Below are positions 270 through 63,407 of a stretch of DNA of 64,000 bases, one piece after another. Within the stretch, counting starts at the first letter, position 1; each line of letters begins with the position of its first letter. The position numbers and the translations under genes were made by a program. The stretch is taken from the NCBI GenBank assembly GCA_963829055.1, contig CAWHHI010000016.1, positions 64,001 through 128,000 on the forward strand, written 5' to 3'. Origin of the DNA: an uncultured Gemmatimonadaceae bacterium. Its GTDB lineage: Bacteria > Gemmatimonadota > Gemmatimonadetes > Gemmatimonadales > Gemmatimonadaceae. The notes beneath the pieces were generated by a model. That model was not told the origin of the DNA and searched no databases. It saw only the letters and a list, made by a program, of their open reading frames with translations.

Positions 270-270
270 C

Positions 271-498: not shown

Positions 499-2110
499 AT
501 GCAGAGATCTCTGTCCATTGCCGTTCTCCTCGCCGCATGCGGCGGATCTGTTCTCGCCGCGCAATCGTACCCCACCGCGAATCCCGTCGTCCGGCAGATC
601 TGGACCGAAGGGATGGACAACTCGCAGGCGTACAAGCTCACGCAGGTGTTGAGCGACTCGATCGGTCCTCGCCTAACGGGGTCGCCCGGCATCAAGCGCG
701 GCAACGACTGGCTCGTCGCGACCTACAAGAGTTGGGGCGTCGACGCCCGCAACGAGCAGTACGGCAAGTGGAAGGGATGGCGACGCGGCACCACGCACGT
801 CGACCTCATGACGCCGCGCGTTCGGACGCTCGAGGGAACGCTGCTCGCGTGGAGTGCGGGCACCGGCGGCAAGGACGTCACGGGCACGACGGTCATCCTT
901 CCCGAAGTACGCGATAGCGCCGCGCTCGTCGCGTGGTTGCCGCAGGCGAAGGGTAAGTTCGTGCTCGTCTCCATGGCGCAGCCGACCTGCCGCCCCGACG
1001 ACAACTGGCGTCAGTTCGGCGACTCGGCTTCGTTCGCCCGGATGCGTGCGGCGCGCGATAGCGCGACACGCGCGTGGACCGCGCGCATCGCCGCGACCGG
1101 CTATGGCGTCGGCCTCGGGACTGGGACGTTAGGCAAGCGGCTGCAGGACGCGGGAGTCGCCGGCGTGATCGCGTCGCGCTGGTCGAACGGCTGGGGCGTG
1201 AACAAGGTGTTCGACTCGCGCACCGACAAGGTGCCGTCGGTCGACCTGAGCTGCGAAGACTACGGGCTCGTCTATCGGCTGACGGAGAACAACCAGGGGC
1301 CGACCCTTCGCGTCCGCGCAGACGCCGAATTCCTCGGCGATGTTCCGGTGTTCAACACGATCGCGACGATCAAGGGATCCCAGAAGCCTGACGAGTACGT
1401 GATGCTTTCCGCTCACTTCGACTCGTGGGACGCGGGCTCCGGCACGACCGACAACGGCACCGGCACCATCACGATGCTCGAGGCGCTTCGCATCCTGAAG
1501 AAGGTCTATCCGAATCCGAAGCGCACGATCGTCGTCGGGTCACTGGAGCGGTGAAGAGCAGGGGCTCAACGGCTCGCGCGCGTTTGCCGCCGATCACCCG
1601 GAGATCGTGAAGGGATTGCAGGCGCTGTTCAATCAGGACAACGGCACCGGCCGCATCGTGAACTTCTCGGGGTCCGGCTTCACGACGGCGAGCGGCAATC
1701 TCGCGCGCTGGATGGCGAACATTCCGGCCGAGATGGCGCGCAACATCAACCTGAGCTTCCCCGGTGCGCCTGCAGGTGGCGGTTCCGACAACGCGTCGTT
1801 CGTCTGCTATGGCGCTCCGGCGTTCGGACTCGGCGCCACGAGCTGGGACTACGGCACGTACACGTGGCACACGAACCGCGACACGTTCGACAAGATCGTC
1901 CTCGACGACCTCAAGAACAACGCGACGCTGACGGCGATGCTGGTGTATCTCGCGAGCGAGGATCCGGAGACGCTGTCGCGCGACAAGCGCGTGTTCGAGC
2001 TCGGACCTAACGCGCGTCCGGCGGCTGGCCCTGGCGGCGCGCCGGCCGGCCCGCAGACATGGCCGGCCTGCACCGAGCCGCTGCGCGACTACTCGCAGTA
2101 TCGTCGTTAG
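499..2110 (+). CDS. Secreted M28 family peptidase (carboxypeptidase Q-like), frameshift at ~1538
   Basis: Signal peptide; GPRLTGS, SAHFDSWD, GTTDNGTG; removing one G restores GHWSGEEQGL; GGSDNASF; WHTNRDTFD. Confidence 0.88.
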
Positions 2111-2133
2111 GCGACCAATAGCAGGAGTCGACG

Positions 2134-3216
2134 ATGAGCGACGGTGTTCCATTTCTCAACCTGGCCGAGATCGAGGCGGCGGCACGCGAGCGCCTGACGA
2201 CGCTCGCGTACGAGTACTACGTCGGCGGCGCGAACGACGAAGTAACGGTGCGCGAGAATCGCTCGGCGTTCGAGCAGCTCGCGCTCCGCTACCGCGTGCT
2301 GGTCGACGTCAGTCGCCGGTCAACGAGCACGACCGTCCTCGGGACGCCCATCGATCTACCGGTGCTCATCGCGCCGACGGCGTTCCAGCGGCTGGCGTGC
2401 GACGAGGGTGAGATCGCCACGGCACGAGCGGCGTCCGCGGCCGGCACGGTGATGATTCTGAGCACCGCGTCCACGTGCACCATCGAGGACGTCGGGGCCG
2501 TCGGCGGTCGCCTCTGGTTTCAGCTGTATGTGTACTCCGATCGCGGCCTGACCAAGGCGCTCGTCGAACGGGCCGAGGCGTGCGGCATGCAGGCGGTCGT
2601 GCTCACGGTGGACGCGCCCGTGTTAGGCCGCCGAGAACGCGATCTCAGGAACCGCTTTCACCTGCCCGACGGGATTCGACTGGCGAACGTGCCGTCGTCA
2701 GGCAGCGTGCCGCTCCCAACCGGACATGGCGAGAGCGGGCTCGCGAACCATTTCGCGACCGGCATCGACGCCGGCATAACGTGGCGCGACGTCGAGTGGC
2801 TGAGGTCGATCACACGCTTGCCCGTGCTGATCAAAGGCATCGTGCGCGGCGACGATGCCGCTCGCGCCGTTGAGCATGGCGCGGCCGGCATCATCGTCTC
2901 GAATCACGGCGGCCGGCAGTTGGACACGGCCATCGCCTCGATTCGCGCGCTGCCTGACGTGGCCGAAGCCGTCAACGGGCGCGCTGAGGTGCTGCTGGAC
3001 GGCGGCGTCAGGCGGGGCACGGATGTGATCAAGGCCATAGCGCTCGGCGCGCGCGCCGTCCTCGTGGGCCGTCCTGTCGTGTGGGGACTCGCCGCCAGTG
3101 GAGAGAACGGCGCGCGGCGGGTGCTCGAGCTTCTGCGCGCCGAAATCGATCTCGCCATGGCGCTTTGCGGGTGCCCGACCGTCGGCGACATTTCACGTGA
3201 CCTGGTGGCGGACTGA
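2134..3216 (+). CDS. FMN-dependent alpha-hydroxy acid oxidase/dehydrogenase
   Basis: WFQLY, LTVDAP, SNHGGRQLD and DGGVRRGTD motifs; AGGAG RBS. Confidence 0.93.
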   Translation: MSDGVPFLNLAEIEAAARERLTTLAYEYYVGGANDEVTVRENRSAFEQLALRYRVLVDVSRRSTSTTVLGTPIDLPVLIAPTAFQRLACDEGEIATARAASAAGTVMILSTASTCTIEDVGAVGGRLWFQLYVYSDRGLTKALVERAEACGMQAVVLTVDAPVLGRRERDLRNRFHLPDGIRLANVPSSGSVPLPTGHGESGLANHFATGIDAGITWRDVEWLRSITRLPVLIKGIVRGDDAARAVEHGAAGIIVSNHGGRQLDTAIASIRALPDVAEAVNGRAEVLLDGGVRRGTDVIKAIALGARAVLVGRPVVWGLAASGENGARRVLELLRAEIDLAMALCGCPTVGDISRDLVAD

Positions 3217-3316: not shown

Positions 3317-3808
3317 ATGCGCTTGATGCGTTCATTCTCCGCCGTTGCCGCGATTGTGCTCATGGCCGCCTGCGACCTGAGCACCGATCCCAACGTCCCG
3401 GCTCCCATCGACCCGACGAAGGATACGTATGCGCCGGCGCTCGGCGTCGACATCGCGTCGATGACCAAGACCTCGAGCGGTCTCTATTACAAGAACAAGA
3501 CAGTCGGCGCTGGCGCGGCTGCCCAGAAGGGTGATTCGGTTCGCGTGCACTACACGCTCTGGCTGACGAACGGCACGAAGGTGCAGTCGAGCAAGGAGAG
3601 CAGTACTGGTGCGCCACTCGAGTTTCTGACCGGTGCAACGCCGCCGCGCGTCATCCCCGGCTTCGAGGAAGGCGTCATGGGCATGCAGCCGGGTGGCGTG
3701 CGTCAGCTGGTGATCCCGCCCGGCCTGGCCTGGGGGTCCGACGGATTCCCGCCCGTGCAGCCTAACGCGAACGTCGTCTTCGAGATCGAGTATCTCGGGC
3801 GGCTCTAG
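3317..3808 (+). CDS. FKBP-type peptidyl-prolyl isomerase, lipoprotein
   Basis: Lipobox MAAC; VRVHYT, VIPGFEEGVMGM, LVIPPGLAWG, VVFEIE. Confidence 0.9.
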   Translation: MRLMRSFSAVAAIVLMAACDLSTDPNVPAPIDPTKDTYAPALGVDIASMTKTSSGLYYKNKTVGAGAAAQKGDSVRVHYTLWLTNGTKVQSSKESSTGAPLEFLTGATPPRVIPGFEEGVMGMQPGGVRQLVIPPGLAWGSDGFPPVQPNANVVFEIEYLGRL

Positions 3809-3819: not shown

Positions 3820-5877
3820 TTGCTCGATCGCGAACCGCTCTGGTCGCCCGCTCCTGAGCGAGCGGCCGCTACAAACCTCGCACGATTCGTTGCAGCCGCG
3901 CGCGCCGCCGGGTACGAACCACCGGAGCGCAGCGCGGCTGTCGACTATTCATCGCTCTACGACTGGTCCGTCGCGAATCCCGAGCGGTTCTGGCCGGCGG
4001 TCTGGGAATTCTGCGGCGTCGTCGCTGACGTGCTTCCCGTTGGGCGCGCATGGACCGACGTGGTTCACGGACTCGATCGAATGGCCCCGCCGGATGCGGT
4101 CGCGGGCCCGCGATGGTTCCTCGGCGCACGACTCAACTTCGCCGAGAACCTGCTGCGTCACCACGATGATCATCCGGCGCTGATCGGCCGCAACGAGCGC
4201 GGCCGCGGTCGCGTGCTGACGTACGCGCAGCTCGGTGACGAGGTCGCGTCCGTCGCCGCCGCTCTCGCGAATGCGGGCGTTCGTGCGGGCGACCGGGTCG
4301 CGGGGTTCCTGCCTAACATTCCGGAAGCCGTGATCGCGATGCTTGCCACGGCGACGCTCGGCGCCATGTGGTCTTCGTGCTCGCCGGATTTCGGCGTGAA
4401 GGGCGTACTGGACCGCTTCGGGCAGATCGAGCCAAAGGTGCTGTTCTGCGCGGATGGCTACCGCTACGCGGGGAAGGAGATCGACTGCCTGACGCGCGTG
4501 CGCGAGATCGTGGCGCAGATTCCAGCCATCGAGCGCGTTGTCGTAGTTCCGTATCTGCGCGACACTCCGGCACTCGGCGAGTTCGTCGAGCTGGGACGCG
4601 TTCTGCGCAACAGCCGAGCACCCAGCGTCACCCAGCCACCAGCACGACCACCCAGCCACCAGCCGCAGTTCCGCGGTTCGAGCGTTTCGCGTTCGACCAT
4701 CCTTTGTACGTGATGTACTCGTCAGGCACCACCGGCCTGCCGAAGTGCATGGTGCACGGCGCTGGCGGGACGCTGCTGCAGCACCTCAAGGAGCTGGTGC
4801 TGCACACCGACCTCCGGCGCGACGACCGCATCTTCTACTTCACGACCTGTGGATGGATGATGTGGAACTGGCTCGTCAGCTCGCTCGCGGTCGGTGCGAC
4901 CGTGGTGCTCTACGACGGTGCGCCGCTCGCGCCTCACGCGGCCAGTCTGTGGGACATGGCCCAGGAAGAGCGCATCACGGTGTTCGGCACGAGCGCGAAG
5001 TATCTGGCGCTCACGGAGAAGGAAGGCGTGGAGCCGGCGCGCACGCACGACCTCTCGTCGCTGCGCGCGATTCTGTCCACGGGAAGTCCACTCGCGCCAC
5101 CGAGCTTCGACTACGTCTACGAGCGAGTGAAGCGAGACGTCCAGCTGAGCAGCATCAGCGGCGGCACGGACATCATCTCGTGCTTCGCGTTAGGCAACCC
5201 CGCGGGCCCGGTCTGGCGCGGCGAGTTGCAGGCGCGCGGGCTCGGCATGGCCGTCGACGTGTTCGACGAGACAGGCACTCCGGTTCGTGGCGCAGCCGGG
5301 AGAGCTCGTCTGCACCAGACCGTTCCCGAGCATGCCCGTCGCGTTCTGGAACGATCCCGACGGCGCGAAGTATCGCAGCGCGTACTTCGAGCAGTACCCG
5401 GGCGTGTGGCGCCACGGCGACTGGGCGCAGCTCACGGAGCACGGCGGCCTGATCATCACAGGCCGCAGTGACGCGACGCTCAACCCCGGCGGCGTGCGCA
5501 TCGGAACCGCGGAGATCTACCGGCAGGTGGAGCAACTCCCCGAGGTCATCGAGAGTCTGGTAGTCGGCCAGGATATCGTGACCGATGGTGCGATCGACGT
5601 GCGGGTCGTGCTGTTCGTCCGCCTCAGACCTAACGAGTCACTCGACGACGCATTGCGCGACCGCATCCGCCGCCAGATCCGCGAGGGCGCGAGCCCGCAC
5701 CACGTGCCGCGGGTGATCGTTCAGGTTGCGGACATTCCGCGGACGATCAGCGGCAAGATCACGGAGCTCGCGGTGCGCGACGTGATCCACGGCCGCCCGG
5801 TGAAGAACACGGACGCGATGGCGAATCCGCAGGCGCTCGAGCTGTTCAGGGATTTGCCGGAACTCGCTAGGCCATAG
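3820..5877 (+). CDS. Acetoacetate--CoA ligase (frameshifts ~4585, ~4665, ~5290)
   Basis: [65 protein letters not shown] across frames. Confidence 0.9.
4614..4664 (+). repeat. Family C repeat arm inside the acetoacetate-CoA ligase gene
   Basis: gcacccagcgtcacccagccaccagcacgaccacccagccaccagc matches 9167-9212 and the reverse complement of 50911-50955. Confidence 0.85.
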
Positions 5878-6099: not shown

Positions 6100-7786
6100 T
6101 GCTCGTCGACTCCGCGATCAACGTCGCGATTTGCGTCGTGACGTCGTGCAGCTTCTTGTGCCGATTCGACACCAGGCGGCGGAAGATGAGCCGCGCCGTA
6201 CCGTACGCCGTCGCCCCGATACCGAGCCACGCGGCGAGTCCGAGCAACGGCGCGTGTGTAGAGGCGGCGACCGACCCCATGACCGCGCCGCCGAGGCCAG
6301 CCCCACCGGGGCCCATGCAGAGGGCAAAGGTTCGTCTCGCGTCGTGCCCGAGCTGCTCGTCGACACGGATGGTCGTCTTGCCGCCACGCGGCATCACCGA
6401 GATCTGCAGGTTCCGCTCTCGACCCGAAACCGACCACGAGAAGGTGCGGCCCACGGAACCGATCTGGCCCACTTCGCCGATCTCTCGCCTGATGATGTCG
6501 AGCACGAGATCGTAGTCGCGCTCGGGCATCTCGCCGTCGATGGTCGCCTCGACCACGATGCGCGTGGGCGATCCGAGGAGCGGATTCACGCGCTGCGTCG
6601 GTCCGTCCTTCACGACGATCGCCGAGGTTCCGTGCGCGCGGGGCGCAACCGATGCGTTGTCGGTCCCGCGAGCCGCAGGCGACGGCACGAGCCCGTATTC
6701 CGCCAGCGCCTGTTGCACGAACGTCTCGGGAATACCTGCGTCCACTGCGGATGCGCGAACGTCGGCGAGCTGGTACGCGGACGACTCCGAGACCGGACGC
6801 GCTGAACGCGGCGCAACCTGCGGCAGCGGGAGCGCCGGCTGCGAGCTCGTGTGCGCCTGCAGTTCCGCCGCGCGCTTCCAGACGGACTGTGCCTGTGTCT
6901 CCGAGATGAGCGATCTCGCGTCTTCACTGCGTGCGCGGTCCGCCTCTGCAGCGTCAGTGCGCACGCGCTCGAGGGCTTCCGCTAGCGCGCCGCTGTTCTC
7001 GAACCGGTCGTCGGCGCTCTTGGCGAGACAACGATCGACGATGGCGGCGATCGCCGGCGGCACGTCGGGCGCGACGTCGCGGAGTCGCGGGGCGGGGCGC
7101 GTCACGTGCGCCACGAGAATCGCCGACGGCGTCTCGCTGTCGAACGGAAACTGACCGGACAGCGCGAGAAACGCGGCGACGCCTAACGCGTACACATCGC
7201 TCCGGCCGTCGATGCGCTCGCCAGTGACCTGCTCGGGGCTCATGTAGTGGACCGTCCCGAGCACCTGGCCTGTCGCCGTGAGCTGCTTCGCCTCCGCGAG
7301 CCGCGCGATCCCGAAATCCGTCACCACTGCACGCCCTGTCGCGCGGTCGATCAGAATGTTCTCCGCCTTCACGTCGCGGTGAATGACGCCGCGCGCGTGA
7401 GCGTAGCCCAGCGCGAGCGCAACGTCTCGCAACTGAGCGATGGTCTCGGCGAATGGCGGGCGACCCTGCGCCTGAATGCGCTGCGCCAACGATTCGCCGT
7501 CGACGTAGCCCATGGCGAAGAACACCCGTCCGGCGATCTCGTCCGCGCGATAGATCGGGACGATGCTCGGGTGCGACAGATGCGCGGCTGTGCGCGCCTC
7601 GCGCAGGAACCGCTCGCGCACGTCGGGATTTCCGGCGAGGTGGGGCGGCAGGGTCTTGATCGCGACGGGACGGTCGAGGTGCCGATCTCTCCCGAGAAAG
7701 ACGACGCCCATGCCGCCGCGACCGATCTCGCGCTCGATGTCGTATTGCCCGGCAAGAGCGGCTGCGAGATCGGATAGTTCAGACAC
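6092..7786 (-). CDS. Hanks-type Ser/Thr protein kinase with C-terminal membrane domain
   Basis: IGRGGMGVV, VAIK, HRDVKAEN, DFGIA, GTVHYMSPE, SDVYALG; GTG start inferred. Confidence 0.93.
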   Translation of the reverse strand: MSELSDLAAALAGQYDIEREIGRGGMGVVFLGRDRHLDRPVAIKTLPPHLAGNPDVRERFLREARTAAHLSHPSIVPIYRADEIAGRVFFAMGYVDGESLAQRIQAQGRPPFAETIAQLRDVALALGYAHARGVIHRDVKAENILIDRATGRAVVTDFGIARLAEAKQLTATGQVLGTVHYMSPEQVTGERIDGRSDVYALGVAAFLALSGQFPFDSETPSAILVAHVTRPAPRLRDVAPDVPPAIAAIVDRCLAKSADDRFENSGALAEALERVRTDAAEADRARSEDARSLISETQAQSVWKRAAELQAHTSSQPALPLPQVAPRSARPVSESSAYQLADVRASAVDAGIPETFVQQALAEYGLVPSPAARGTDNASVAPRAHGTSAIVVKDGPTQRVNPLLGSPTRIVVEATIDGEMPERDYDLVLDIIRREIGEVGQIGSVGRTFSWSVSGRERNLQISVMPRGGKTTIRVDEQLGHDARRTFALCMGPGGAGLGGAVMGSVAASTHAPLLGLAAWLGIGATAYGTARLIFRRLVSNRHKKLHDVTTQIATLIAESTSRP

Positions 7787-10415: not shown

Positions 10416-10443
10416 GCGCGTACGCGCCTAACTCGTCGGCGGG
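10400..10443. terminator. Perfect 44-bp palindrome over the hmgA stop codon
   Basis: cccgccgacgagttaggcgcgtacgcgcctaactcgtcggcggg is its own reverse complement; lies between convergent genes. Confidence 0.6.
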
Positions 10444-12523: not shown

Positions 12524-12612
12524 CGGCGGGAACGGGAAGAGGGAACTGGGAACGGGGGCTGCCAGCTGCTTCGCTGCGCATAGCCCCCAGCCAGCATCCA
12601 CCTAACGACAGA

Positions 12613-53778: not shown

Positions 53779-53949
53779 CGAAGAAGCTTCGCGGGTGTGG
53801 CCCGGCGCGAACGCGCGCGGGCCACGCCTGTCATCTTCCTCCCCGGCCTGACGCGGCCGGAACGCTGCAGCGCGGCGTGCCGGCGCTTGCCGGTCGCGAT
53901 CGCGCGTGCCCCTTGCCGGGCCCGTCATCCCGTCACAGACTCCTCGCGC

Positions 53950-56658
53950 ATGACGAGAGAGGAGCGCGTCGACGACGCTGACGGCACTGCTGACGGCACC
54001 GAGGTGGTTCACGTCCTCGCGCACACGCACTGGGACCGTGAGTGGTATCTCCCGGCTGGCCGCTTCCGCCAGCGACTCGTAGCACTCGTCGACGAACTGC
54101 TCGACGACGCGACGCCGTCGGCCCCGTTCCTCCTCGACGGCCAGGCGGTCATCCTCGACGACTACGCGGAGCTGCGTCCGGATCGGGTGCCGCGCCTGGC
54201 GGCGGCGCTCCAGAGCGGCGCACTCGAGGCCGGACCGTGGTACGTGCTCGCCGACGAGCTGATTCCGAGCGGCGAGGCGCTGGTCAGAAACCTTCACGCG
54301 GGTCGGCGCACGCTCCATCGCTTCGGAGCCGAGCCGCCGCGCGTGCTCTACTCGCCGGACGCGTTCGGGCACGCCGCGGCGCTGCCGTGCATTGCGGTTG
54401 GATTCGGGATGGACGTTGTCGTCGCCTGGCGCGGATTCGGTGGCCGACGTTGGCCGTCGACCGACACCGTGCGGTGGCAGTCCGCCGACGGATCTGCCGT
54501 CACGCTGTTCCACCTCCCCCCAGACGGCTACGAGTTCGGCTCCAGCCTTCCGACGGAGTCGGCGGCCGCGGCTGCCCGTTGGCGAACGATGCACGATGTT
54601 CTCGCGCGTCGATCGAGAACCGGCGTGCTGCTCGTACAGAACGGCGCGGATCATCACGCGCGGCAGTCTGCACAGGACGATGCTGTGCGCGCGCTCGCCG
54701 TAGCTGCTGCCCCAACACCCGTCGAGCGCGTGTCGCTCGGCAGGTTCGCTGCAGAGTTGCTGCAACGATCGACGCGTGCGTCGTTGCCGACGGTGCGCGG
54801 CGAGTTGCGCGATTCGTACGGCTACACCTGGACGCTCCAGGGGACGTTCGGCACGCGCGCTCGGCAGAAGCGGCGCAATGCGCACGCCGAGCGCCTGCTG
54901 GTGCGTGATGCCGAGCCGTGGGCCGCGCTCGCCGCGCGAGCCGGCGGTGTGTCCCGACGCCATCTGACGGACGCCGCCTGGCGCACGGTGTTGCTCTCGC
55001 ACCCACACGACACGCTGTGCGGCTGCTCCATCGACGACGTCGCGCGCGCCATGGACGCGCGGCTCGATGACGCGATCGCGCAGGGCAACGGCATTCGGGA
55101 CGATGCCGTGCTCGACGTGATCGGCCACGACGCGGTCGGCGCGCGCACGCAGAAACCAAAATGGCGGTCGCTCATGCTCGTGCGGAATCGGGCACCGCGA
55201 GCGCGCGGAGGCATCGCCGACCTGGAGATCGAGACGTTCCTCGCGGACGTGTCGGTCGGCCCTGGCTCCGCACCACCGGAGCGCGTTAGGCACGTGGTGT
55301 CGCCGCGGCTCCTGTACGGCGACGCTCCCGTGCAGTTGCTCGCGACGCGGCGGACGAACCGGCGCATCGAGTCGCCGCAGCACTATCCCGACAACGATCT
55401 CGTCGAGGTACGCCGGGTCGTCGCCTGGATACCGGCGGTGCCCGGCTACTCGGTTACGCCGCTCCACCTCGATGAAGGGAAGAGCACACTGCCGCTCGCT
55501 GACCCGTCGGTGGTCGCGACGTCCGAGTCGCTCGACAATGGAATCCTTCGCGTTCAGCTCGAGACCGACGGCACGATCTCTCTGTCGTCCGCCGACGGCA
55601 CGTGGTCGATCAAGCGAGCCGTCGCCATCGAGGACGTTGGAGATCGCGGAGACCTGTACACCCATTCGCCGTTCGGATCGGTGAGGATCGAGGACCGCTT
55701 TCTCCGCGCGCGCCTGATCCACACGGGGCCGCTCCGCGCCGAGATCGAGACGCGGTGGCGCATCGTCGTGCCGTCCGCTGTCGACCGTCGCCTCGCCGGC
55801 GCTCGGCGCGAAGGCACGAGTGCGGGCTTCATCGACATGCGCATCCGGCTTCGGCTCGATGCCGGCGCACCGTATCTGTCGCTATTCGTCGACGGCATCA
55901 ATGGCGCCGCTGGACACCGACTGCGGCTTCGCATGCGCACGGGGGTCGCGAACCCGCGCGTGTGGGCTGACGCGGCGTTTGGTCCCGTCGAGCGCGTCCC
56001 GGTTGTGGTGAGTGAGCGCGAGCGCGCGATCGAGGCCCCGCCGCCGACTGCGCCGCTGCATCGCTACGTGTCCGTCTTCGATGCGGCGCGGGGTGTCACC
56101 GTGTACAGCGATGGCCTGGCCGAGTACGAGGCGGACGCGGAGGGGGACGTCGCGGTGACGCTCGTGAGGGCAGTGGGCGATCTATCGCGAAACGATCTTC
56201 CGGAGCGACCCGGCCACGCGGGCTGGCCGGTGCCGACCCCGGAGGCGCAGATGTTCGGCCCCTTCGCCGCCGAGCTCGCGGTCTTCCCCCATGGCCCGCG
56301 CGACGCGGACACGATCGATCTGATCGAGCGCACCGCGGACGACGTCCTGCTGCCGCTCGTCGGCACCACGTTGCGGTCGGCGCTCGCGGACTATCCCGCG
56401 ACCGCGGGCCTGGAGCTCGAGGGCCGCGGCCTCGCGTTCTCGACCGCGACGGAAAGCCAGGACGGCGAGTGGCTCGTGCTCCGGTGTGTGAACCTGACGG
56501 ACGAGCCGACCGCGGGCCTCTGGCGTCTCCCGTTCACGCCGCGTGAGGCAAGCCTCGCGCGACTCGATGAGACCCCGTTAGGCGCCGCGCCGGTGAACGA
56601 GTCGTCCGTCGCGTTTACCGCGGGCCCGCATGCGGTGGTGACGCTGCTGGTGCGCTGA
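53950..56658 (+). CDS. Glycoside hydrolase family 38 (alpha-mannosidase-like)
   Basis: HTHWDREWY, LDGQ, GPWYVLADE, PDAFGH, NGADH, HPHDTLCGCSID. Confidence 0.9.
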   Translation: MTREERVDDADGTADGTEVVHVLAHTHWDREWYLPAGRFRQRLVALVDELLDDATPSAPFLLDGQAVILDDYAELRPDRVPRLAAALQSGALEAGPWYVLADELIPSGEALVRNLHAGRRTLHRFGAEPPRVLYSPDAFGHAAALPCIAVGFGMDVVVAWRGFGGRRWPSTDTVRWQSADGSAVTLFHLPPDGYEFGSSLPTESAAAAARWRTMHDVLARRSRTGVLLVQNGADHHARQSAQDDAVRALAVAAAPTPVERVSLGRFAAELLQRSTRASLPTVRGELRDSYGYTWTLQGTFGTRARQKRRNAHAERLLVRDAEPWAALAARAGGVSRRHLTDAAWRTVLLSHPHDTLCGCSIDDVARAMDARLDDAIAQGNGIRDDAVLDVIGHDAVGARTQKPKWRSLMLVRNRAPRARGGIADLEIETFLADVSVGPGSAPPERVRHVVSPRLLYGDAPVQLLATRRTNRRIESPQHYPDNDLVEVRRVVAWIPAVPGYSVTPLHLDEGKSTLPLADPSVVATSESLDNGILRVQLETDGTISLSSADGTWSIKRAVAIEDVGDRGDLYTHSPFGSVRIEDRFLRARLIHTGPLRAEIETRWRIVVPSAVDRRLAGARREGTSAGFIDMRIRLRLDAGAPYLSLFVDGINGAAGHRLRLRMRTGVANPRVWADAAFGPVERVPVVVSERERAIEAPPPTAPLHRYVSVFDAARGVTVYSDGLAEYEADAEGDVAVTLVRAVGDLSRNDLPERPGHAGWPVPTPEAQMFGPFAAELAVFPHGPRDADTIDLIERTADDVLLPLVGTTLRSALADYPATAGLELEGRGLAFSTATESQDGEWLVLRCVNLTDEPTAGLWRLPFTPREASLARLDETPLGAAPVNESSVAFTAGPHAVVTLLVR

Positions 56659-57092: not shown

Positions 57093-57177
57093 TGTCGAAG
57101 CAGGCCTCGGCGTCCTCTGCCGTAAACAGCAGGTGCCGTCGCCGTCGTTAGGTCCATCCGAATGGTGACTGGTCCGA

Positions 57178-58024
57178 CTAGGTTCGCTCCGCGAGGTCCC
57201 GTGGCTTCTCGCCCGCCAGTCGATCTCGCAACGAGTCTCCGAGCAGCGTGCACGCCAGCACCGTGATGATCAGCGCGATCCCCGGCGCGATCGCGACCCA
57301 CGGTGCTGTGACGATCAGGTCGCGACCTCCAGCGATCATGTTCCCCCAACTCGGCGCCGGCGGCTGGATGCCCAGTCCGAGGAACGACAGGCCGCTCTCG
57401 AGGAGGATGGCGTTGCCGACGCCGAGCGTCGTCGCCACGATCGCCGGCCCGAGTGCGTTTGGCACCACATGGCGCCACAGCACTCGGCGCGACGACGCGC
57501 CTAACGCCTGGGCCGCCGACACGTACGGCTGCGCCCGCACGCCGAGCACTTCGCCGCGCACCAGCCGCGCGACGCCCATCCAGCCCGTCGCGCCGAGCAC
57601 GACCAGCACCGTCGCGGCACCCGGCTGCCACAGCGCCGCGCAGAGGAGAAGGAGGATCAATCTCGGTATCGAGAGCAGCGCGTCGGAGATCGCCATGGCG
57701 ACGCGGTCCACCACGCCGCCGCTCCACGCCGCCACGGCGCCGATCGCGGTGCCCACAATGCCCGCGAGCAGCGAGCCCGCAATGCCGACCGCCAGCGAGA
57801 TTCTGCCCGCGACCATCATCCGCACGAACAGGTCTCGGCCGAACCGATCGGTGCCCAGGATGTGGAAGCGGCCGAGCGCGTCGGAGTATCCGGGCGGAAT
57901 CGAGCCGCGTCGCCAGCACGTCGCCGATCGCGAGCGGGTCCGTGACCGCGAGCCACGGCACGAAGACGACCGCCGCGATGAGCGCGACGAGCACGACGGC
58001 TGAGAATCGCGCGAGCCGACTCAC
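57178..58024 (-). CDS. Opp/Dpp-type ABC permease (OppC-like; frameshift ~57895)
   Basis: HILGTDRFGRDL, EAA-loop AAQALGAS, ESGLSFLGLG, PSWGNMI. Confidence 0.88.
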
Positions 58025-60634: not shown

Positions 60635-63407
60635 CGGTACTGCTTCACACGGCTGGGGTTGATGCGCGTCGCGGGGCGATTCATGGATCGTTGGCCGAGC
60701 TTGCGGACTCACTCGCGAACGACCTCGACCCGGTACTCTCGCGACCGCTGTTCATCCCTTCAGAGAAGGCGCGCATGACGCGCCGCGGCGGCCGCTGCGA
60801 GGCGGACGGCACGCTGCTCGAGTTCGACCCCTTCTCGCCACGCGTGCACCGCTGCCCGAAATGCGGATCGACGTTCGACGACGATACGCACTATCGCTGG
60901 TGGGTCATGGGGTATCAGCTCTGGCTGGCGGAGCGCGCGGTGCACGCGTCGACGCTGTATGCGCTCCGTGGAGACGCACGACATCTCCGATTTTGCGCGC
61001 GCGTGTGCTCGATGGCTACGCCGAGCGCTATCTCCAGTACCCGAACAAGGACAACGTCCTCGGGCCGACGCGGCTCTTCTTCAGCACATACCTCGAATCG
61101 ATCTGGCTGCTGCAGATCATCGTCGCGCTGGACCTGCTGGAGCTCTCGGCGCCCACATCATCGCTCGCCACGTTAGGTGGTCGGGTGCGTGACCGCATCA
61201 TCGATCCGAGCTCCGCGCTCATCGCGAGCTATGACGAGGGACTGTCCAACCGGCAGGTGTGGAACAACGCCGCGCTGCTCGGCGCGAGACGCCTGCTCGG
61301 CAGGGGTATCGACCAGGCTGCGCTGCACGGCGCATTGGGGCTGACGGCGCACCTCACGCACGGCTTGTTAGGCGACGGGACGTGGTACGAGGGCGAGAAC
61401 TACCATTTGTTCGCGCACCGCGGGCTCTGGTATGGCGTGATGATCACGGAAACGGCGGGCGTCGAGCTGGATCCAGCGCTCGTGATGCGGTTCGAGGAGG
61501 CGTTCGCCACGCCGTTCGTCAGCGCGCTGCCGGACTTCACATTTCCGTCGCGCCGGGACTCACAGTACCGCGTGTCGCTGCGTCAGTGGCGCTTCGCCGA
61601 GCTGGCCGAGCTGGGACTCGTCAGGCGGCCAACGGACACGCGCCTCACTGCTGCGCTGGCGACGTTGTACGACAATGCTACGCCGCGCCACGACACCGGC
61701 CGCGCACGCTCGACTGCGGAAGCGGAACGGAACACTCCCAGCACCGCGCTGACCCGTGCGGACCTCGGCTGGCGATCGCTGCTGTTCGCGTTGCCGACGT
61801 TACCGCCTGTCGCGCACGCGTCCCAGCCTTCTGCGCTGCTCGCCGACCAGGGTCTCGCCATCCTGCGGCGTGACGGCGGCAACGTGTACGCGGCGCTGGA
61901 CTATGGGCACTCGGGGGCTGGGCACGGGCATCCCGATCGATTGAACGTGATCCTCGTCCGCGGCAACGATCGTTGGCTCGATGACGTCGGCACCGGCTCG
62001 TACGTCGATCCGTCGCTCCACTGGTATCGGAGCACGCTCGCGCATAACGCGCCGCTCGTGGACGGACGCTCGCAGCGTCGAGTGCACGGCTCGCTCGACG
62101 CGTACGAGGATCGAGGTGCGGCAGGGTGGGTACGCGCGTTCGTGGATGGTGTCGCGCCAGGCGTTAGGCTGGAGCGGACGCTGGTCGCTATGCCCAACTA
62201 CGTCATCGACGAGCTGACGTGGGTGAGCGACCACGACGCCACGGTCGACCTCCCCATGCACGTGGACGGCGATCTCGTCGGCGTCGGCGAATGGACGCGA
62301 GCAACACCCGACGGCGGCACAGAGGCAGAGGATGGATTCGGGTTTCTCACTGCGGCCGAGACCGCGACGTCCGATGGCGACGTTAGGCTTCACGCCAGGC
62401 TTGGCACCTCGACGGCGGACGCGCGCGTGTTCGTCGACGCGCCGCACGCGTGGTGGCGCGCCGTATCCTTCGGCGCACCGGGCGCTGGCCCCACGCGCTT
62501 TCACTTCGTGCGTGCGCGCGGCCGGCGCGGGTCGATCACGACCGTGTGGGATCTCGAAGCGGTCGTCGCCGATGCAGCGCGGGTCGATGCCAGCGTATCG
62601 GTTTCACTGCACGATGGTGCGCGGCATGAACACCGCGCGGATGCCGACGGCTGGCACATTGCCATGACCGTCGGTCGCGCGACGAGTAGCATCGACCTTG
62701 GTGGCGTGGTGCGAGGACGTGACGGTCGACCCGCCGGTGCCACTACGGCGGACGCGCGGCCCACGCCGATCACGATTCCTTCCCGGCAGCGCGCGCACGG
62801 TCCGGCCGCCCTGTCGCAGCCACTCGTGTTCACTCTCGAGGACGCGCAATACCGGCGTTCGGAGGACTCGTGGATCGAAGCCGGCAAGCCGACCGCAACC
62901 GTCTCGATCGCCGTCGAGCGCAGTGATATCGTGCTGACCATCGATGTCGCCAAGCCAGACGTACATTTCGCGCCGGTCTGCGACTCGAATCCGCTGGACA
63001 ACGAAAATCCTGATACCAACAGCGACGGCGTCCAATTGCACCTCGCCACTCCTGCCGACGACGGCGTTGCGCCCGACCGTGAGACCACCTGGCTCCTCGT
63101 GCCCGAGCTCGCGAGCAACCGTGTGCGCATCTCCGCTCGGCCCGAAGCGAGCGCGCAAATCGTGTCTGCCCAGTGGCAGCCGACAGGCCGCGGATATTCC
63201 GTGCGCTGCGTTCTTCCTACAGGAGCGCTCGGGATTGTAGCCCAAGTGCCGTTCCTGCTCGGCGTGGTGGTGAACGAAACCTCCCCCGATCGCGAGCGCA
63301 GGCGAGGCCAACTCGTGCTCGGCGGCCCGCCCGGTGAGTTCGTCTACCTTCGTGGGGACCGTCTCCCCCGAGATCGCCACCTCGCGTTCGTGATCGGCGA
63401 TGCCTGA
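60631..63407 (+). CDS. Heparinase II/III-like polysaccharide lyase family protein (frameshift ~61000)
   Basis: SNRQVWNN, DGTWYEGENYHLF, GHGHPDRL, YRSTLAHN; N-terminal Cys cluster. Confidence 0.8.

What the first reader, a model, noticed from the sequence alone, without database searches (positions are those of the whole stretch)
671..62388. Highly iterated non-palindromic hexamer CCTAAC/GTTAGG (usually GCCTAACG) carried by rare codons
Seen: by eye I count 62 copies (33 CCTAAC and 29 GTTAGG on +), about one per kb with no strand skew. Examples: 671, 1128, 2106, 2622, 4311, 7181, 13314, 24674, 36733, 50429, 50597, 62382. A rough mononucleotide model at ~68% GC predicts about 20, and TTA/CTA/AGG/CCT codons are otherwise rare here. 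The motif fits several reading frames without changing conserved residues: GPR-L(cta)-TGS at 671, FL-P(cct)-N-IPE at 4311, A-L(tta)-GHPLG at 24674. It also forms stop codons (2108, 10413, 21896, 29714, 53776). Conserved residues in different frames argue against a single-base basecalling artefact. Inference: a genome-wide signal like cyanobacterial HIP1 or a DNA-uptake sequence, or a motif fixed by a methyltransferase-coupled repair bias or bound by a nucleoid protein. Lack of skew argues against Chi/KOPS. I know of no description for this lineage.
Basis: partly seen in the sequence, partly recalled or inferred. Interest (0 to 1): 0.9.

Follow-up and report, generated by a model that had tools for sequence, protein, structure and literature searches.

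The report
Hyper-abundant GCCTAACG octamer in Gemmatimonadaceae
A soil bacterium writes one eight-letter DNA word about 5,000 times into its genome, even inside genes with otherwise rare codons, in a pattern that most resembles the DNA-uptake tags of Neisseria and Haemophilus and has not been described for this phylum.

Summary
CCTAAC/GTTAGG occurs 62 times in the window (6.2 expected) and 7,103 times in the 7.78-Mb genome. The full word is GCCTAACG: 5,004 copies, 49 times an order-2 Markov expectation and 14-32 times a synonymous codon shuffle.

It is not a sequencing artefact. An independent metagenome contig 98% identical to the window keeps 11 of 11 sites, and many separately assembled Gemmatimonadaceae genomes are also rich in it.

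The word is strand-symmetric, shows no replication skew, and is about equally dense in coding and non-coding DNA. It holds 69% of all TTA codons and has raised the Pro-Asn dipeptide frequency. Copies repel each other below about 400 bp. It is missing from foreign or chimeric segments. It occurs only in some genera of the order Gemmatimonadales.

No Vsr, co-distributed methyltransferase, ComP homologue or integron integrase tracks it. Competence and type IV pilus genes are present, but in motif-poor relatives too.

Best reading (about 0.45): a DNA-uptake-sequence-like tag spread by molecular drive. Uptake itself was not tested.

Unexpectedly, the word is identical to the integron attC core (GCCTAAC/GTTAGGC) used by cassette arrays in this order. 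That link is unexplained.

The parts
672..677 (+). motif copy, octamer GCCTAACG; Leu(CTA)-Thr in ORF 499-1554(+)
1128..1133 (-). motif copy, octamer GCCTAACG; Leu(TTA)-Gly in ORF 499-1554(+)
2006..2011 (+). motif copy, ACCTAACG; Pro(CCT)-Asn in ORF 1607-2110(+)
2106..2111 (-). motif copy, GCCTAACG; supplies TAG stop of ORF 1607-2110(+)
2622..2627 (-). motif copy, GCCTAACA; Leu(TTA)-Gly in ORF 2134-3216(+)
3761..3766 (+). motif copy, GCCTAACG; Pro-Asn in ORF 3356-3808(+)
4312..4317 (+). motif copy, GCCTAACA; Pro-Asn in ORF 3820-4713(+)
5189..5194 (-). motif copy, GCCTAACG; outside my gene calls (frameshifted acyl-CoA synthetase region)
5629..5634 (+). motif copy, ACCTAACG; Pro-Asn in ORF 5287-5877(+)
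7182..7187 (+). motif copy, GCCTAACG; Leu(TTA)-Gly in ORF 6092-7786(-)
10411..10416 (-). motif copy, GCCTAACT; supplies TAG stop of ORF 9294-10415(+)
10427..10432 (+). motif copy, GCCTAACT; intergenic
10732..10737 (+). motif copy, GCCTAACA; Leu(TTA)-Gly in ORF 10551-11342(-)
12601..12606 (+). motif copy, ACCTAACG; intergenic by my calls
13315..13320 (+). motif copy, GCCTAACG; Pro-Asn in ORF 12985-13509(+)
14026..14031 (+). motif copy, GCCTAACG; Pro-Asn in ORF 13801-14301(+)
14347..14352 (+). motif copy, GCCTAACG; intergenic by my calls
15095..15100 (-). motif copy, GCCTAACG; Pro-Asn in ORF 14924-15658(-)
15561..15566 (-). motif copy, CCCTAACG; Leu(CTA)-Thr in ORF 14924-15658(-)
16883..16888 (+). 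motif copy, GCCTAACG; Leu(TTA)-Gly in ORF 16327-18459(-)
17366..17371 (+). motif copy, GCCTAACG; Leu(TTA)-Gly in ORF 16327-18459(-)
17705..17710 (+). motif copy, GCCTAACA; Leu(TTA)-Gly in ORF 16327-18459(-)
18076..18081 (-). motif copy, GCCTAACC; Pro-Asn in ORF 16327-18459(-)
21894..21899 (-). motif copy, ACCTAACG; supplies TAG stop of ORF 21089-21898(+)
23226..23231 (+). motif copy, ACCTAACG; Pro-Asn in ORF 23091-25001(+)
23583..23588 (-). motif copy, GCCTAACG; Val(GTT)-Arg(AGG) in ORF 23091-25001(+)
24674..24679 (-). motif copy, GCCTAACG; Leu(TTA)-Gly inside the conserved thiolase stretch AIALGHPLG
25638..25643 (+). motif copy, GCCTAACG; Leu(TTA)-Gly in ORF 25115-26617(-)
25848..25853 (+). 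motif copy, GCCTAACG; Leu(TTA)-Gly in ORF 25115-26617(-)
27899..27904 (+). motif copy, TCCTAACG; Pro-Asn in ORF 27533-29698(+)
28454..28459 (+). motif copy, GCCTAACG; Pro-Asn in ORF 27533-29698(+)
29570..29575 (-). motif copy, GCCTAACG; Val-Arg(AGG) in ORF 27533-29698(+)
29713..29718 (+). motif copy, ACCTAACG; supplies TAG stop of ORF 29714-30118(-)
30337..30342 (+). motif copy, GCCTAACG; intergenic by my calls
32153..32158 (-). motif copy, GCCTAACC; Pro-Asn in ORF 30383-32929(-)
34768..34773 (+). motif copy, GCCTAACG; Pro-Asn in ORF 34531-36117(+)
35833..35838 (+). motif copy, ACCTAACG; Pro-Asn in ORF 34531-36117(+)
36734..36739 (+). motif copy, GCCTAACG; Pro-Asn in ORF 36086-37459(+)
37546..37551 (+). 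motif copy, GCCTAACG; intergenic by my calls
38414..38419 (+). motif copy, GCCTAACG; Leu(CTA)-Thr in ORF 37986-38645(+)
40221..40226 (-). motif copy, GCCTAACG; Val-Arg(AGG) in ORF 39594-40340(+); kept in contig L145
41387..41392 (+). motif copy, GCCTAACG; intergenic; kept in L145
42703..42708 (+). motif copy, TCCTAACG; intergenic; kept in L145
42749..42754 (-). motif copy, GCCTAACG; intergenic; kept in L145
43401..43406 (-). motif copy, GCCTAACG; Pro-Asn in ORF 42783-44108(-); kept in L145, L001, L002
46252..46257 (+). motif copy, TCCTAACG; Leu(CTA)-Thr in ORF 46124-47041(+); kept in L145
46471..46476 (-). motif copy, GCCTAACT; Leu(TTA)-Gly in ORF 46124-47041(+); kept in L145
48863..48868 (-). 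motif copy, GCCTAACG; Leu(TTA)-Gly in arginine decarboxylase ORF 48114-50075(+); kept in L145 and L001, lost in L002
49766..49771 (-). motif copy, GCCTAACA; Leu(TTA)-Gly in ORF 48114-50075(+); kept in L145, Leu(CTG/CTC)-Gly in L001/L002
50429..50434 (-). motif copy, GCCTAACC; Pro-Asn in superoxide dismutase ORF 50261-50872(-); kept in L145
50597..50602 (-). motif copy, GCCTAACG; Pro-Asn in ORF 50261-50872(-); kept in L145, L001, L002
52299..52304 (-). motif copy, GCCTAACG; Leu(TTA)-Gly in ORF 51766-53076(+)
52452..52457 (+). motif copy, CCCTAACG; Leu(CTA)-Thr in ORF 51766-53076(+)
53774..53779 (+). motif copy, GCCTAACG; supplies TAA stop of ORF 53626-53778(+)
55285..55290 (-). motif copy, GCCTAACG; Val-Arg(AGG) in ORF 53950-56658(+)
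56577..56582 (-). motif copy, GCCTAACG; Leu(TTA)-Gly in ORF 53950-56658(+)
57147..57152 (-). motif copy, ACCTAACG; intergenic by my calls
57500..57505 (+). motif copy, GCCTAACG; Leu(TTA)-Gly in ORF 57178-57825(-)
61172..61177 (-). motif copy, ACCTAACG; Leu(TTA)-Gly in ORF 60993-63407(+)
61367..61372 (-). motif copy, GCCTAACA; Leu(TTA)-Gly in ORF 60993-63407(+)
62163..62168 (-). motif copy, GCCTAACG; Val-Arg(AGG) in ORF 60993-63407(+)
62382..62387 (-). motif copy, GCCTAACG; Val-Arg(AGG) in ORF 60993-63407(+)

Best explanation
GCCTAACG (logo [G/A]CCTAAC[G/A]) is a lineage-specific 'self' tag of some Gemmatimonadales. It works like the DNA uptake sequences of Neisseriaceae and Pasteurellaceae.

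Inferred mechanism: a step in natural transformation prefers fragments that carry the word. That step could be binding at the type IV pilus or outer membrane, or a later step acting on the incoming strand. Point mutations that create the word are then passed between cells more often than alleles that lack it. This molecular drive fills the genome to about one copy per 0.5-1.5 kb.

Accumulation is checked only by protein function, and by the fact that a second copy within a few hundred bases adds nothing.

Shown here: the abundance, the anatomy, the interference between copies, the imprint on proteins, the absence from foreign DNA, and the restriction to certain lineages.

Inferred only: the biased uptake or recombination itself, and the receptor.
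For: 1. Abundance and density match uptake sequences. There are 5,004 octamers in 7.78 Mb, 49 times the Markov expectation, and 2.0 hexamers per kb in another genus, G014. Passages of PMC7811141 give a USS spacing of about 1,000 bp.

2. Strand symmetry without replication skew. Hexamers split 3,494:3,609. Octamers split 1,083:1,217 on the G-rich versus C-rich strand, while control 8-mers reach 70:30. PMC1939737 passages report no orientation bias for uptake sequences.

3. It acts at the DNA level. It occupies all four open frames, stop codons (317 of 868 TAA, 246 of 1,799 TAG) and intergenic DNA at similar density. Codon-shuffle observed over expected is 14.5-31.7.

4. Copies interfere. A Pro-Asn site carries the word in 61 of 368 cases (0.17) when another copy lies within 100 bp, against 478 of 946 (0.51) at 400-800 bp. 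Leu-Gly goes from 0.025 to 0.172 and Leu-Thr from 0.008 to 0.106. Gaps under 200 bp number 548 against 1,190 expected. The spacing CV in G014 is 0.78. PMC7811141 passages: two USS within 100 bp do not raise uptake, and even spacing is expected under drive.

5. The proteome is marked. Pro-Asn observed over expected is 1.39 against 1.03 in motif-poor relatives, and 39% of Pro-Asn pairs are motif-coded. The PMC2817400 abstract reports that USS-coded tripeptides are about doubled.

6. It is missing from foreign or chimeric DNA. Deserts of 48, 37 and 31 kb carry second copies of housekeeping genes only 46-60% identical to the resident copy.

7. One-mismatch variants are 2.5-4 times denser in rich than in poor genomes, as PMC1939737 describes for uptake sequences.

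8. Different genera share the same word and the same flank logo. It lies on all four replicons of the closed genome G304.

9. Sites are kept more often than chance but do turn over: 56 of 125 comparisons against 36.4 expected at about 80% nucleotide identity. Most changes are synonymous.

10. The uptake machinery is present: ComEC, a ComEA-like HHH protein, DprA, pilMNOPQ and four pilin-like genes.
Against: - No uptake or transformation experiment exists. My paper search found no report of competence or uptake sequences in this phylum: none of the 15 listed papers mentions Gemmatimonadetes.
- Every competence or pilus gene I tested is equally present in motif-poor relatives, so nothing co-varies with the word. 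These include ComEC, ComEA and DprA in G007 and ComEC and ComEA in G293, PilM in 41 of 41 genomes, and the pilus-cluster 388-aa protein in 36 of 41.
- No ComP_DUS match was found in any rich genome.
- Inverted pairs in terminators, which are typical of DUS and USS, are not enriched. FR, RF, FF and RR pairs are about equal at short range.
- One genome of genus g46 (G293) is poor while three of its congeners are rich.
- The word equals the integron attC core. This points to a tyrosine-recombinase-type DNA binder rather than a pilus receptor.
- Interference and conservation would also follow from selection for a regularly spaced intracellular binding site.
Confidence: 0.45

Rival explanations
1. 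The word is a selected binding site for an intracellular protein that organises or maintains the chromosome. Natural selection keeps it at regular spacing. This is the type of function Xu et al. proposed for HIP1 in 2018.
For: - Copies interfere and spacing is regular.
- Sites are kept above chance between species.
- All four replicons of G304 carry the word.
- The PMC5861425 abstract argues for selection and a nucleoid role for HIP1.
Against: - I know of no nucleoid protein that demands an exact 8-mer at thousands of sites and at the cost of rare codons and changed residues (recalled knowledge, not a call).
- Turnover between species is high: 69 of 125 site comparisons differ.
- The trait is patchy inside one family, and even inside genus g46.
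- No candidate protein was identified.
Confidence: 0.2
2. The word is tied to a tyrosine recombinase of the integron or Xer kind. GCCTAAC/GTTAGGC is the R''/R' core of attC sites. Genomic copies could be landing pads (attG-like) or decoys for IntI, or binding sites for a relative of IntI, and that activity spreads or maintains them.
For: - In motif-poor G027, contig C95 holds a cassette array. All 18 copies in the 14 kb I read sit at attC starts. Of the 10 I looked at, 9 have GTTRRRY 86-99 nt downstream and fold as hairpins of -21 to -35 kcal/mol.
- G000 has an IntI gene at C20:208041-208958 with a same-strand run of the word beside it.
- PMC12901181 passages give the consensus R'' RYYYAAC and R' GTTRRRY, cite an attC whose R'' is GCCTAAC, and cite cassette insertion into genomes at attG sites.
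- Only 16 of about 8,192 heptamer classes fit RYYYAAC (my arithmetic), so a chance match is unlikely. The comparison was made post hoc.
Against: - IntI passes its cut-off in 24 of 41 relatives, rich and poor alike. It was not found at that level in rich G002, G004, G006 and G014.
- Only 275 of 5,627 GCCTAAC copies have a GTTRRRY partner in attC geometry, against 232 in the control geometry. More than 95% are therefore solitary.
- Most copies lie inside conserved housekeeping genes, where cassette insertion would be harmful.
- No known recombinase activity creates sites by point substitution.
Confidence: 0.12
3. The word is the product of a sequence-specific mutation or mismatch-repair bias, such as very-short-patch-like repair coupled to a methyltransferase. 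This would convert near-matches into the word site by site.
For: - Very different starting sequences converge on the same word by mostly synonymous substitutions.
- HIP1 has cognate methyltransferases (PMC4390886 abstract in the listing; PMC13756078 abstract).
Against: - Vsr was found in 4 of 41 genomes and in none of the 8 rich ones.
- PF01555 was found in 0 of 7 genomes of the genus.
- PF02384 gave no match in G000 and only weak matches in 5 of the 6 congeners.
- PF00145 was found in 0 of 5.
- The D12 methyltransferase is also present in poor genomes and was not found in G014.
- Independent per-site conversion cannot produce the 3- to 13-fold interference between neighbours.
- Methylation itself could not be read.
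Confidence: 0.07
4. The word is a Chi-like signal that tames an AddAB-type helicase-nuclease, so that DNA carrying it survives and recombines.
For: - Two PDDEXK_1 nuclease domains lie 3.6 kb apart on one strand at C15:11673-16010. This arrangement looks like an AddB-AddA pair.
- A recombination hotspot on incoming linear DNA could also drive its own spread (inference).
Against: - There is no replication-oriented skew (47:53), while control words reach 70:30.
- RecC was found in 0 of 5 genomes.
- A 49-fold excess, with rare codons and altered peptides, is far beyond the known Chi enrichments I recall.
- I did not examine how AddAB is distributed among relatives.
Confidence: 0.06
5. The word is an artefact of long-read basecalling or polishing at a modified motif.
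For: The assembly has many single-base frameshifts, for example at about 1537, 4700 and 5290. A public contig lacks one base at 1537.
Against: - Public metagenome contig L145, 98% identical to the window, keeps 11 of 11 sites.
- 12 of 80 named loci from separately assembled MAGs carry at least 0.35 copies per kb.
- The six other genomes of the genus, assembled in 260-1,170 contigs, are also rich.
- The motif respects reading frames and amino acids.
- Foreign segments within the same assembly lack it.
Confidence: 0.01

Closest known systems
USS of Pasteurellaceae (Haemophilus influenzae uptake signal sequence)
   Same: - Short asymmetric word at about one copy per kb.
- Found on both strands without orientation bias, and mostly inside genes.
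- Relatively even spacing, with no gain from a second copy within 100 bp.
- Under-represented in newly acquired DNA.
- One-mismatch forms are also enriched.
- Encoded peptides are inflated.
(PMC7811141 and PMC1939737 passages, PMC2817400 abstract; compare.)
   Different: - Different sequence, phylum (Gemmatimonadota) and habitat (soil).
- An 8-bp core with no AT-rich flanks.
- Close inverted pairs are not enriched, whereas 23% of USS lie within 100 bp of another.
- Built from rare rather than preferred codons.
- Biased uptake has not been shown.
DUS of Neisseriaceae with its ComP minor-pilin receptor
   Same: A hyper-abundant 'self' word shared across related genera. Type IV pilus and ComEC/ComEA/DprA machinery are present.
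   Different: - No ComP_DUS family match in any motif-rich genome.
- Not concentrated in terminators.
- No sequence 'dialects' seen among relatives.
HIP1 (GCGATCGC) of cyanobacteria
   Same: An octamer 15- to 300-fold over-represented, found in and between genes and conserved (PMC5861425 abstract). It is now proposed to act as an uptake or transformation tag (PMC13756078 abstract and discussion).
   Different: - HIP1 is a palindrome with two cognate methyltransferases. This word is asymmetric and no co-distributed methyltransferase was found.
- In cyanobacteria, type IV pilus genes correlate with HIP1. Here PilM is present in 41 of 41 genomes, so no such correlation can arise.
Integron attC core (R'' RYYYAAC / R' GTTRRRY)
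   Same: The heptamer GCCTAAC and its complement GTTAGGC are exact instances of the consensus (PMC12901181 passages). They are the boxes actually used by cassette arrays in this order.
   Different: - More than 95% of genomic copies are solitary, with no partner box or hairpin.
- They lie in housekeeping genes.
- IntI does not track motif density.
Chi / KOPS-type oriented words
   Same: A short over-represented word on the chromosome. An AddAB-like gene pair is present.
   Different: No replication-linked skew, and a far higher excess.

Membership tests
DNA uptake enhancing sequences (DUS/USS) | Short word hyper-abundant genome-wide, about one per kb | tested here: met
   There are 5,004 octamers in 7.78 Mb, 49 times the Markov expectation. 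G014 carries 2.0 hexamers per kb.
DNA uptake enhancing sequences (DUS/USS) | Both orientations equally frequent, no replication skew | tested here: met
   Hexamers split 3,494:3,609. Octamers split 1,083:1,217 against GC-skew orientation, while control words reach 70:30.
DNA uptake enhancing sequences (DUS/USS) | Cells preferentially take up or integrate DNA carrying the word | not testable with these tools
   This needs uptake or transformation assays. No paper on competence in this phylum was found.
DNA uptake enhancing sequences (DUS/USS) | Competence machinery present (type IV pilus, ComEA, ComEC, DprA) | tested here: met
   Shown. The same genes are present in motif-poor relatives.
DNA uptake enhancing sequences (DUS/USS) | Under-represented in recently acquired DNA | tested here: met
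   Deserts of 48, 37 and 31 kb hold divergent second copies of housekeeping genes. They may be chimeric joins rather than true acquisitions.
DNA uptake enhancing sequences (DUS/USS) | Frequent inverted pairs forming terminators | tested here: not met
   Short-range FR, RF, FF and RR pairs are about equal. Only about 5 clean hairpin pairs were found genome-wide.
DNA uptake enhancing sequences (DUS/USS) | Imprint on the proteome (encoded peptides inflated) | tested here: met
   Pro-Asn observed over expected is 1.39 against 1.03 in motif-poor relatives.
Neisserial DUS system | ComP-type minor pilin receptor (Pfam ComP_DUS) | tested here: not met
   No match in the 7 genomes of the genus or in G014. 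Only 1 of 41 genomes passes the cut-off.
HIP-type highly iterated palindromes | Palindromic word | tested here: not met
   GCCTAACG is not its own reverse complement (sequence).
HIP-type highly iterated palindromes | Cognate orphan methyltransferases recognising the word | tested here: not met
   No methyltransferase family co-varies with the word. Methylation itself was not readable.
Integron attC sites | R''/R' boxes fitting RYYYAAC / GTTRRRY | tested here: met
   GCCTAAC and GTTAGGC fit the consensus (PMC12901181 passages). They serve as attC boxes in G027 and beside the IntI gene of G000.
Integron attC sites | Paired boxes 50-140 nt apart folding into a bulged hairpin | tested here: not met
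   Of 5,627 copies, 275 have a partner in attC geometry, against 232 in the control geometry.
Integron attC sites | Dependence on an integron integrase | tested here: not met
   IntI passes its cut-off in 24 of 41 genomes irrespective of motif density. It was not found at that level in rich G002 and G004.
Chi / KOPS | Strong co-orientation with replication | tested here: not met
   The split is 47:53.
Very-short-patch repair footprint | Vsr endonuclease with a cognate C5 methyltransferase | tested here: not met
   Vsr was found in 0 of 8 rich genomes. PF00145 was found in 0 of 5.

The most novel reading that the evidence does not exclude
Some Gemmatimonadales carry the first uptake-signal-type 'self' tag known outside Proteobacteria (and, if HIP1 qualifies, cyanobacteria). 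Its recognition word is the integron recombination core GCCTAAC/GTTAGGC. The same word would then mark kin DNA for transformation and mark every gene cassette in the environment for capture. Alternatively, the driver itself is an IntI/Xer-family DNA binder. Either way, natural transformation and integron biology would be mechanistically coupled.
Probability: 0.12. Interest if true: 0.93.

Novelty: new variant of a known kind. Interest (0 to 1): 0.8.

Why it matters
According to a 2025 preprint abstract (10.1101/2025.10.24.684340), uptake sequences are known from only two proteobacterial families. HIP1 in cyanobacteria has only recently been proposed as a third case (PMC13756078).

A fourth, unrelated word in an abundant but barely cultured soil phylum would have several consequences:
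- It would show that such genome-wide tags evolve repeatedly.
- It would give a sequence handle for detecting recent gene flow and foreign DNA in Gemmatimonadaceae genomes and bins. Motif deserts flag chimeric or acquired segments.
- It would predict that these bacteria are naturally transformable, and suggest adding the word to constructs to make them genetically tractable.
- It offers a clean natural experiment on how far a DNA-level drive can push codon usage (69% of TTA codons) and protein sequence.

The exact identity with the integron attC core is a new and testable lead that links transformation with cassette capture.

Tried and rejected
- **Basecalling artefact:** rejected.
- **Laid contigs of runs X1, X2, X3 and X8:** pieces with few differences span sites 2622, 17366 and 18076. 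None of the 40 listed differences falls in a motif hexamer. However, 898 rows were not shown and the library type is not on record, so I rely instead.
- **Vsr:** no link.
- **Methyltransferases:** N6_N4, N6_Mtase and C5 show no link. The conserved D12 orphan methyltransferase is not co-distributed.
- **ComP_DUS:** no link.
- **ComEC, ComEA, DprA, secretin, PilM:** present everywhere, so there is no contrast.
- **Pilus-cluster candidates:** the 388-aa protein next to pilM seemed missing from the G007 pilus locus but occurs in 36 of 41 genomes.
- **Integron integrase:** not co-distributed.
- **RecC:** none found.
- **'Dialects':** no other hyper-abundant 7-mer turned up in about 20-kb loci of motif-poor relatives.
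- **Inverted-pair or terminator role:** no excess.
- **Large repeats and IS elements as a test of exclusion from mobile DNA:** too few repeats to say.
- **Remnants of the word in poor genome G293:** none. Matches with up to one mismatch run at 0.45 of the control.
- **Earlier findings of this scan:** nothing held.
- **Telomere likeness:** the word contains the nematode telomere unit (recalled), but there are no tandem arrays, so I treat this as coincidence.
- **Literature searches:** searches for the letters returned only primers and unrelated uses.

Full report
**1. Observation**

The hexamer CCTAAC occurs 62 times in the window, 33 on the + strand and 29 on the - strand. Dinucleotide-preserving shuffles gave 6.2 on average and 12 at most, and 0 of 100 reached 62. 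The octamer GCCTAACG occurs 36 times against 1.1 expected.

By my gene calls, the 62 window copies divide as follows:

| Context | Copies |
|---|---|
| Leu(TTA)-Gly | 18 |
| Pro(CCT)-Asn | 18 |
| Val-Arg(AGG) | 6 |
| Leu(CTA)-Thr | 5 |
| Stop codon | 5 |
| Between called genes | 10 |

**2. Genome-wide picture**

The window is C16:64001-128000 of a 7,784,024-base, 20-contig assembly with about 66.7% GC.

- The genome holds 7,103 hexamers and 5,004 octamers, counting both strands.
- The octamer is the most over-represented word at every length from 6 to 9, at 49 times an order-2 Markov expectation. Longer words add nothing beyond what the octamer predicts, so the unit is 8 bases.
- The logo is [G 0.79 / A 0.12] CCTAAC [G 0.90]. 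Edge variants are also enriched: ACCTAACG 17-fold, GCCTAACA 15-fold and GCATAACG 7.7-fold.
- In 20 synonymous codon shuffles that keep every protein and each gene's codon usage, observed counts stay 5.7-12.4 times (hexamer) and 14.5-31.7 times (octamer) above the shuffles. No shuffle came close.
- The motif contains 69% of all TTA codons (1,890 of 2,744), 21% of CTA, 16% of CCT and 9% of AGG.
- It supplies 317 of 868 TAA stops and 246 of 1,799 TAG stops.
- By my calls, 29% of copies lie in the 27% of the genome called non-coding. Density is therefore about equal inside and outside genes.

Caveat: the gene calls come from my own caller. The assembly is full of single-base frameshifts that split genes, so coding fractions are rough.

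**3. Not an artefact**

Those frameshifts made a basecalling artefact a serious possibility. Several results rule it out.

- A public metagenome contig (L145), 98% identical to the window over 12.3 kb, keeps 11 of 11 motif sites letter for letter, while it differs at many single-base indels.
- Of 80 named Gemmatimonadaceae loci found with the window's arginine decarboxylase, 12 carry at least 0.35 copies per kb. Several of these come from assemblies whose contig names are typical of short-read assemblers, which is my reading of the names.
- The six other genomes of the genus, in 260-1,170 contigs, hold 2,501-5,112 octamers each.
- Foreign segments within the same assembly lack the word.

**4. 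Lineage and distribution**

Record titles place the relatives in Gemmatimonadaceae, phylum Gemmatimonadota.

- Among 41 close genomes, 14 have more than twice as many octamers as the reversed-word control. These are all 7 of the genus, G014 of another genus (6,360 in 5.1 Mb), and G010, G019, G020, G036, G038 and G040. Most of the others have far fewer than the control, for example 6 against 107 in G011.
- In an even sample of 401 genomes of the phylum, 16 exceed twice the control: 13 in family f1 and 3 in genus g77 of family f2. None of the remaining families does.
- Within genus g46, three genomes hold 3,479-4,141 copies and one (G293) holds 66. G293 shows no excess of one-mismatch remnants.
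- On a single-gene tree of 75 loci plus the window, rich rows fall in three clades. Five of the 80 loci were dropped because their match was under 550 residues or contained a stop. The 'poor' label needs only 2 changes on the tree.
- In a 314-kb sample of G014, the flank logo, strand symmetry (312:319) and spacing behaviour match those of G000.
- All four replicons of the closed genome G304 (5.31, 1.11, 1.04 and 0.02 Mb) carry 0.62-1.0 hexamers per kb in the stretches I sampled.
- No other hyper-abundant word turned up in motif-poor loci.

Genomes G013, G085, G124 and G203 are unpublished. They enter these tallies, and G013 is also listed among the motif-poor genomes that hold the D12 methyltransferase (section 7).

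**5. Anatomy that constrains the mechanism**

- *Orientation.* Contigs have a steady GC-skew sign. Some 8-mers are skewed up to 70:30 with it, but the octamer splits 1,083:1,217.
- *Spacing.* Gaps below 200 bp number 548 against 1,190 expected from an exponential, while gaps of 500-1,000 bp are in excess (2,188 against 1,649).
- *Interference, controlling for where the word could sit without changing the protein*:

| Dipeptide site | Occupied, another copy within 100 bp | Occupied, nearest copy at 400-800 bp |
|---|---|---|
| Pro-Asn | 61 of 368 | 478 of 946 |
| Leu-Gly | 66 of 2,666 | 709 of 4,123 |
| Leu-Thr | 15 of 1,835 | 298 of 2,805 |

  Copies therefore interfere over a few hundred bases. 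Independent site-by-site mutation or repair cannot do this.
- *Pairs.* Adjacent copies show no preference for inverted orientation.
- *Proteome.* Pro-Asn is 1.39 times its independent expectation, against 1.03 in ORFs of motif-poor relatives. 39% of all Pro-Asn pairs are spelled CCTAAC.
- *Deserts.* The three largest motif-free stretches are C6:6,854-55,038, C11:7,377-44,055 and C6:591,809 to the contig end. They are not prophages. They carry housekeeping genes such as chorismate synthase, FtsK, DAHP synthase, TrpG and FolD. These have a second copy elsewhere in the genome at only 46-60% protein identity, so the stretches are foreign or chimeric. Repeats flank two of the three (C6:6,854-55,038 and C11) and a smaller one on C4.
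- *Evolution.* Against 17 loci of related species at about 80% nucleotide identity, 56 of 125 site comparisons keep the hexamer, where 36.4 are expected from background hexamer identity. These loci are not independent of each other. The alternatives are ordinary codons such as CTC-GG, CTG-GG, CCG-AAC, CTG-AC and GTT-CGG, so the word arises and decays by mostly synonymous point changes.
- *Near-matches.* One-mismatch relatives of the word are 2.5-4 times denser in rich than in poor genomes.

**6. Comparison with known systems**

These traits match what the papers say of uptake sequences.

- Passages of PMC7811141 report spacing of about 1 kb, under-representation in newly acquired DNA, no extra uptake from two copies within 100 bp, and even distribution as an expected result of molecular drive.
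- Passages of PMC1939737 report no orientation bias, most H. influenzae copies inside ORFs, and graded enrichment of mismatched forms.
- The abstract of PMC2817400 reports encoded tripeptides roughly doubled and genes without homologues lacking the sequence.

The differences here are that there is no terminator pairing, the word uses rare rather than preferred codons, and there are no AT-rich flanks.

HIP1 of cyanobacteria is the other close case. The PMC5861425 abstract reports 15- to 300-fold excess, conservation and a proposed nucleoid role. The abstract and discussion of PMC13756078 report a correlation with type IV pilus and competence genes, methylation-dependent enhancement of transformation, and a proposed uptake role.

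**7. Search for a driver**

No gene I tested tracks the word.

| Gene or family | Result |
|---|---|
| Vsr | 4 of 41 genomes, none of the 8 rich |
| PF01555 methyltransferase | 20 of 41, but 0 of 7 in the genus |
| PF02384 methyltransferase | none in G000, only weak matches in 5 of the 6 congeners |
| PF00145 methyltransferase | 0 of 5 |
| D12-class orphan methyltransferase | conserved in the genus; orthologues also in poor G007, G009, G013, G015, G017, G018 and G023 (weak 30%-identity match in G021); not found in rich G014 |
| ComP_DUS | no match in rich genomes |
| ComEC, ComEA-like, DprA | present in rich and poor genomes alike |
| Secretin | 5 of 5 genomes tested |
| PilM | 41 of 41 |
| 388-aa protein in the pilin/pilMNOPQ cluster | 36 of 41 |
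| RecC | not found |
| AddAB-like pair | present at C15 |

**8. An unexpected identity**

In motif-poor genomes, the few octamers often sit in same-strand arrays about 500-650 bp apart. I read one such array, G027:C95.

- All 18 copies in the 14 kb read lie at the start of an imperfect palindrome of about 100 nt.
- In 9 of the 10 I examined, this palindrome ends in GTTRRRY (8 GTTAGGC, 1 GTTAGAC) 86-99 nt downstream.
- They fold at -21 to -35 kcal/mol.

These are integron attC sites. Passages of PMC12901181 give the consensus R'' RYYYAAC and R' GTTRRRY, cite an attC whose R'' is GCCTAAC, and mention cassette insertion into genomes at 'attG' sites. The hyper-abundant word and its complement are therefore exactly the attC core used in this order. 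G000 itself has an integron integrase at C20:208041-208958, with a same-strand run of the word beside it.

Two results argue against a direct integron origin. Integrase passes its cut-off in 24 of 41 genomes regardless of motif density, and was not found at that level in rich G002 and G004. Only 275 of 5,627 GCCTAAC copies have a partner box in attC geometry, against 232 in a control geometry. The genomic copies are therefore not attC sites, and the identity is unexplained. A chance match to the consensus is about 16 in 8,192 heptamer classes, but I made the comparison after the fact.

**9. Verdict**

The best-supported explanation, at about 0.45, is an uptake-sequence-like tag spread by molecular drive through transformation. 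Only the genomic footprint is shown, not uptake.

Rival explanations and their weights:
- selected intracellular binding site: 0.2
- tyrosine-recombinase link: 0.12
- repair bias: 0.07
- Chi-like signal: 0.06
- artefact: 0.01

I found no description in print. Searches with the letters, with the phylum name plus competence and uptake terms, and with the phylum name plus oligonucleotide terms returned nothing relevant.

Noticed in passing
window 122-280, 44193-44373, 47884-48070; genome-wide: A second abundant element is a MITE/REP-like intergenic palindrome. Its terminal inverted repeats begin GTCATTCCGAGCG, and the 11-mer occurs 685 times, often in tandem 17-20 bp apart or in inverted pairs about 105-112 bp apart. 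Metagenome contig depth is very high over window 1-667.
   Followed up: partly
window about 1537, 4700, 5290, 13500, 37986: Many genes are split by single-base frameshifts: M28 peptidase, acyl-CoA synthetase, PaaC-like and peptidase S58. A public contig lacks one base at 1537. This points to assembly indel errors, which lower the apparent coding density to 73% and probably the completeness estimate to 86%.
   Followed up: partly
G000 C6:6854-55038; C11:7377-44055; C6:591809-623330; C4:804933-820719: These motif-free stretches of 16-48 kb have a different GC content (63-73%). They carry second copies of single-copy housekeeping genes only 46-60% identical to the resident ones. A D5_N primase-like gene sits at the left edge of the first stretch. 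Repeats flank the first C6 stretch and the C11 and C4 stretches. They are either chimeric joins or large acquisitions.
   Followed up: partly
L246 = G027:C95:1-14000 (array runs to about 23.6 kb); also G025:C3, G027:C43/C80, G379:C2: Chromosomal integron cassette arrays with about 100-nt attC hairpins occur in motif-poor Gemmatimonadales. No ORF of 400 aa or more lies in the 14 kb I read. Integron integrase passes its cut-off in 24 of 41 genomes of the order sampled.
   Followed up: partly
G000 C20:197000-209000: G000's own integron consists of an integrase gene at 208041-208958 (-) and a run of about a dozen same-strand motif copies with conserved following bases. This is probably a short cassette array.
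   Followed up: partly
G000 C8:134573-135653; L109 = G004:C17:45558-49298: An orphan D12-class adenine methyltransferase (DPPY motif) lies between a CoA-transferase gene and an ECF sigma factor gene. It is conserved in the genus and in several motif-poor genera, and is frameshifted in G000. Its target is unknown.
   Followed up: partly
window 11540-14301 and 21089-29698: A phenylacetate catabolic cluster. It comprises PaaA/PaaC/PaaD-like genes, enoyl-CoA hydratase, 3-hydroxyacyl-CoA dehydrogenase, a thioesterase-thiolase fusion and an aldehyde dehydrogenase-MaoC fusion.
   Followed up: no
genome-wide (contigs over 400 kb): The 8-mers GAGCAGGG and GGTGCAGG are about 70:30 skewed toward the G-rich strand. 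They are candidates for KOPS-like oriented words. On C16 the GC-skew sign switches near 540 kb and 1.18 Mb.
   Followed up: no
window 18680-21040: A 786-aa ORF with HEAT repeats scores poorly in my coding model, leaving a 2-kb gap in the gene calls. It may be atypical in composition or frameshifted.
   Followed up: no
G000 C18:97494-97548; C10:178152-178250; C20:183882-184002: A few clean hairpins are bounded by GCCTAACG on one side and CGTTAGGC on the other. One is a perfect 55-nt palindrome right after a gene end. They could be solitary attC-like or terminator-like structures.
   Followed up: partly
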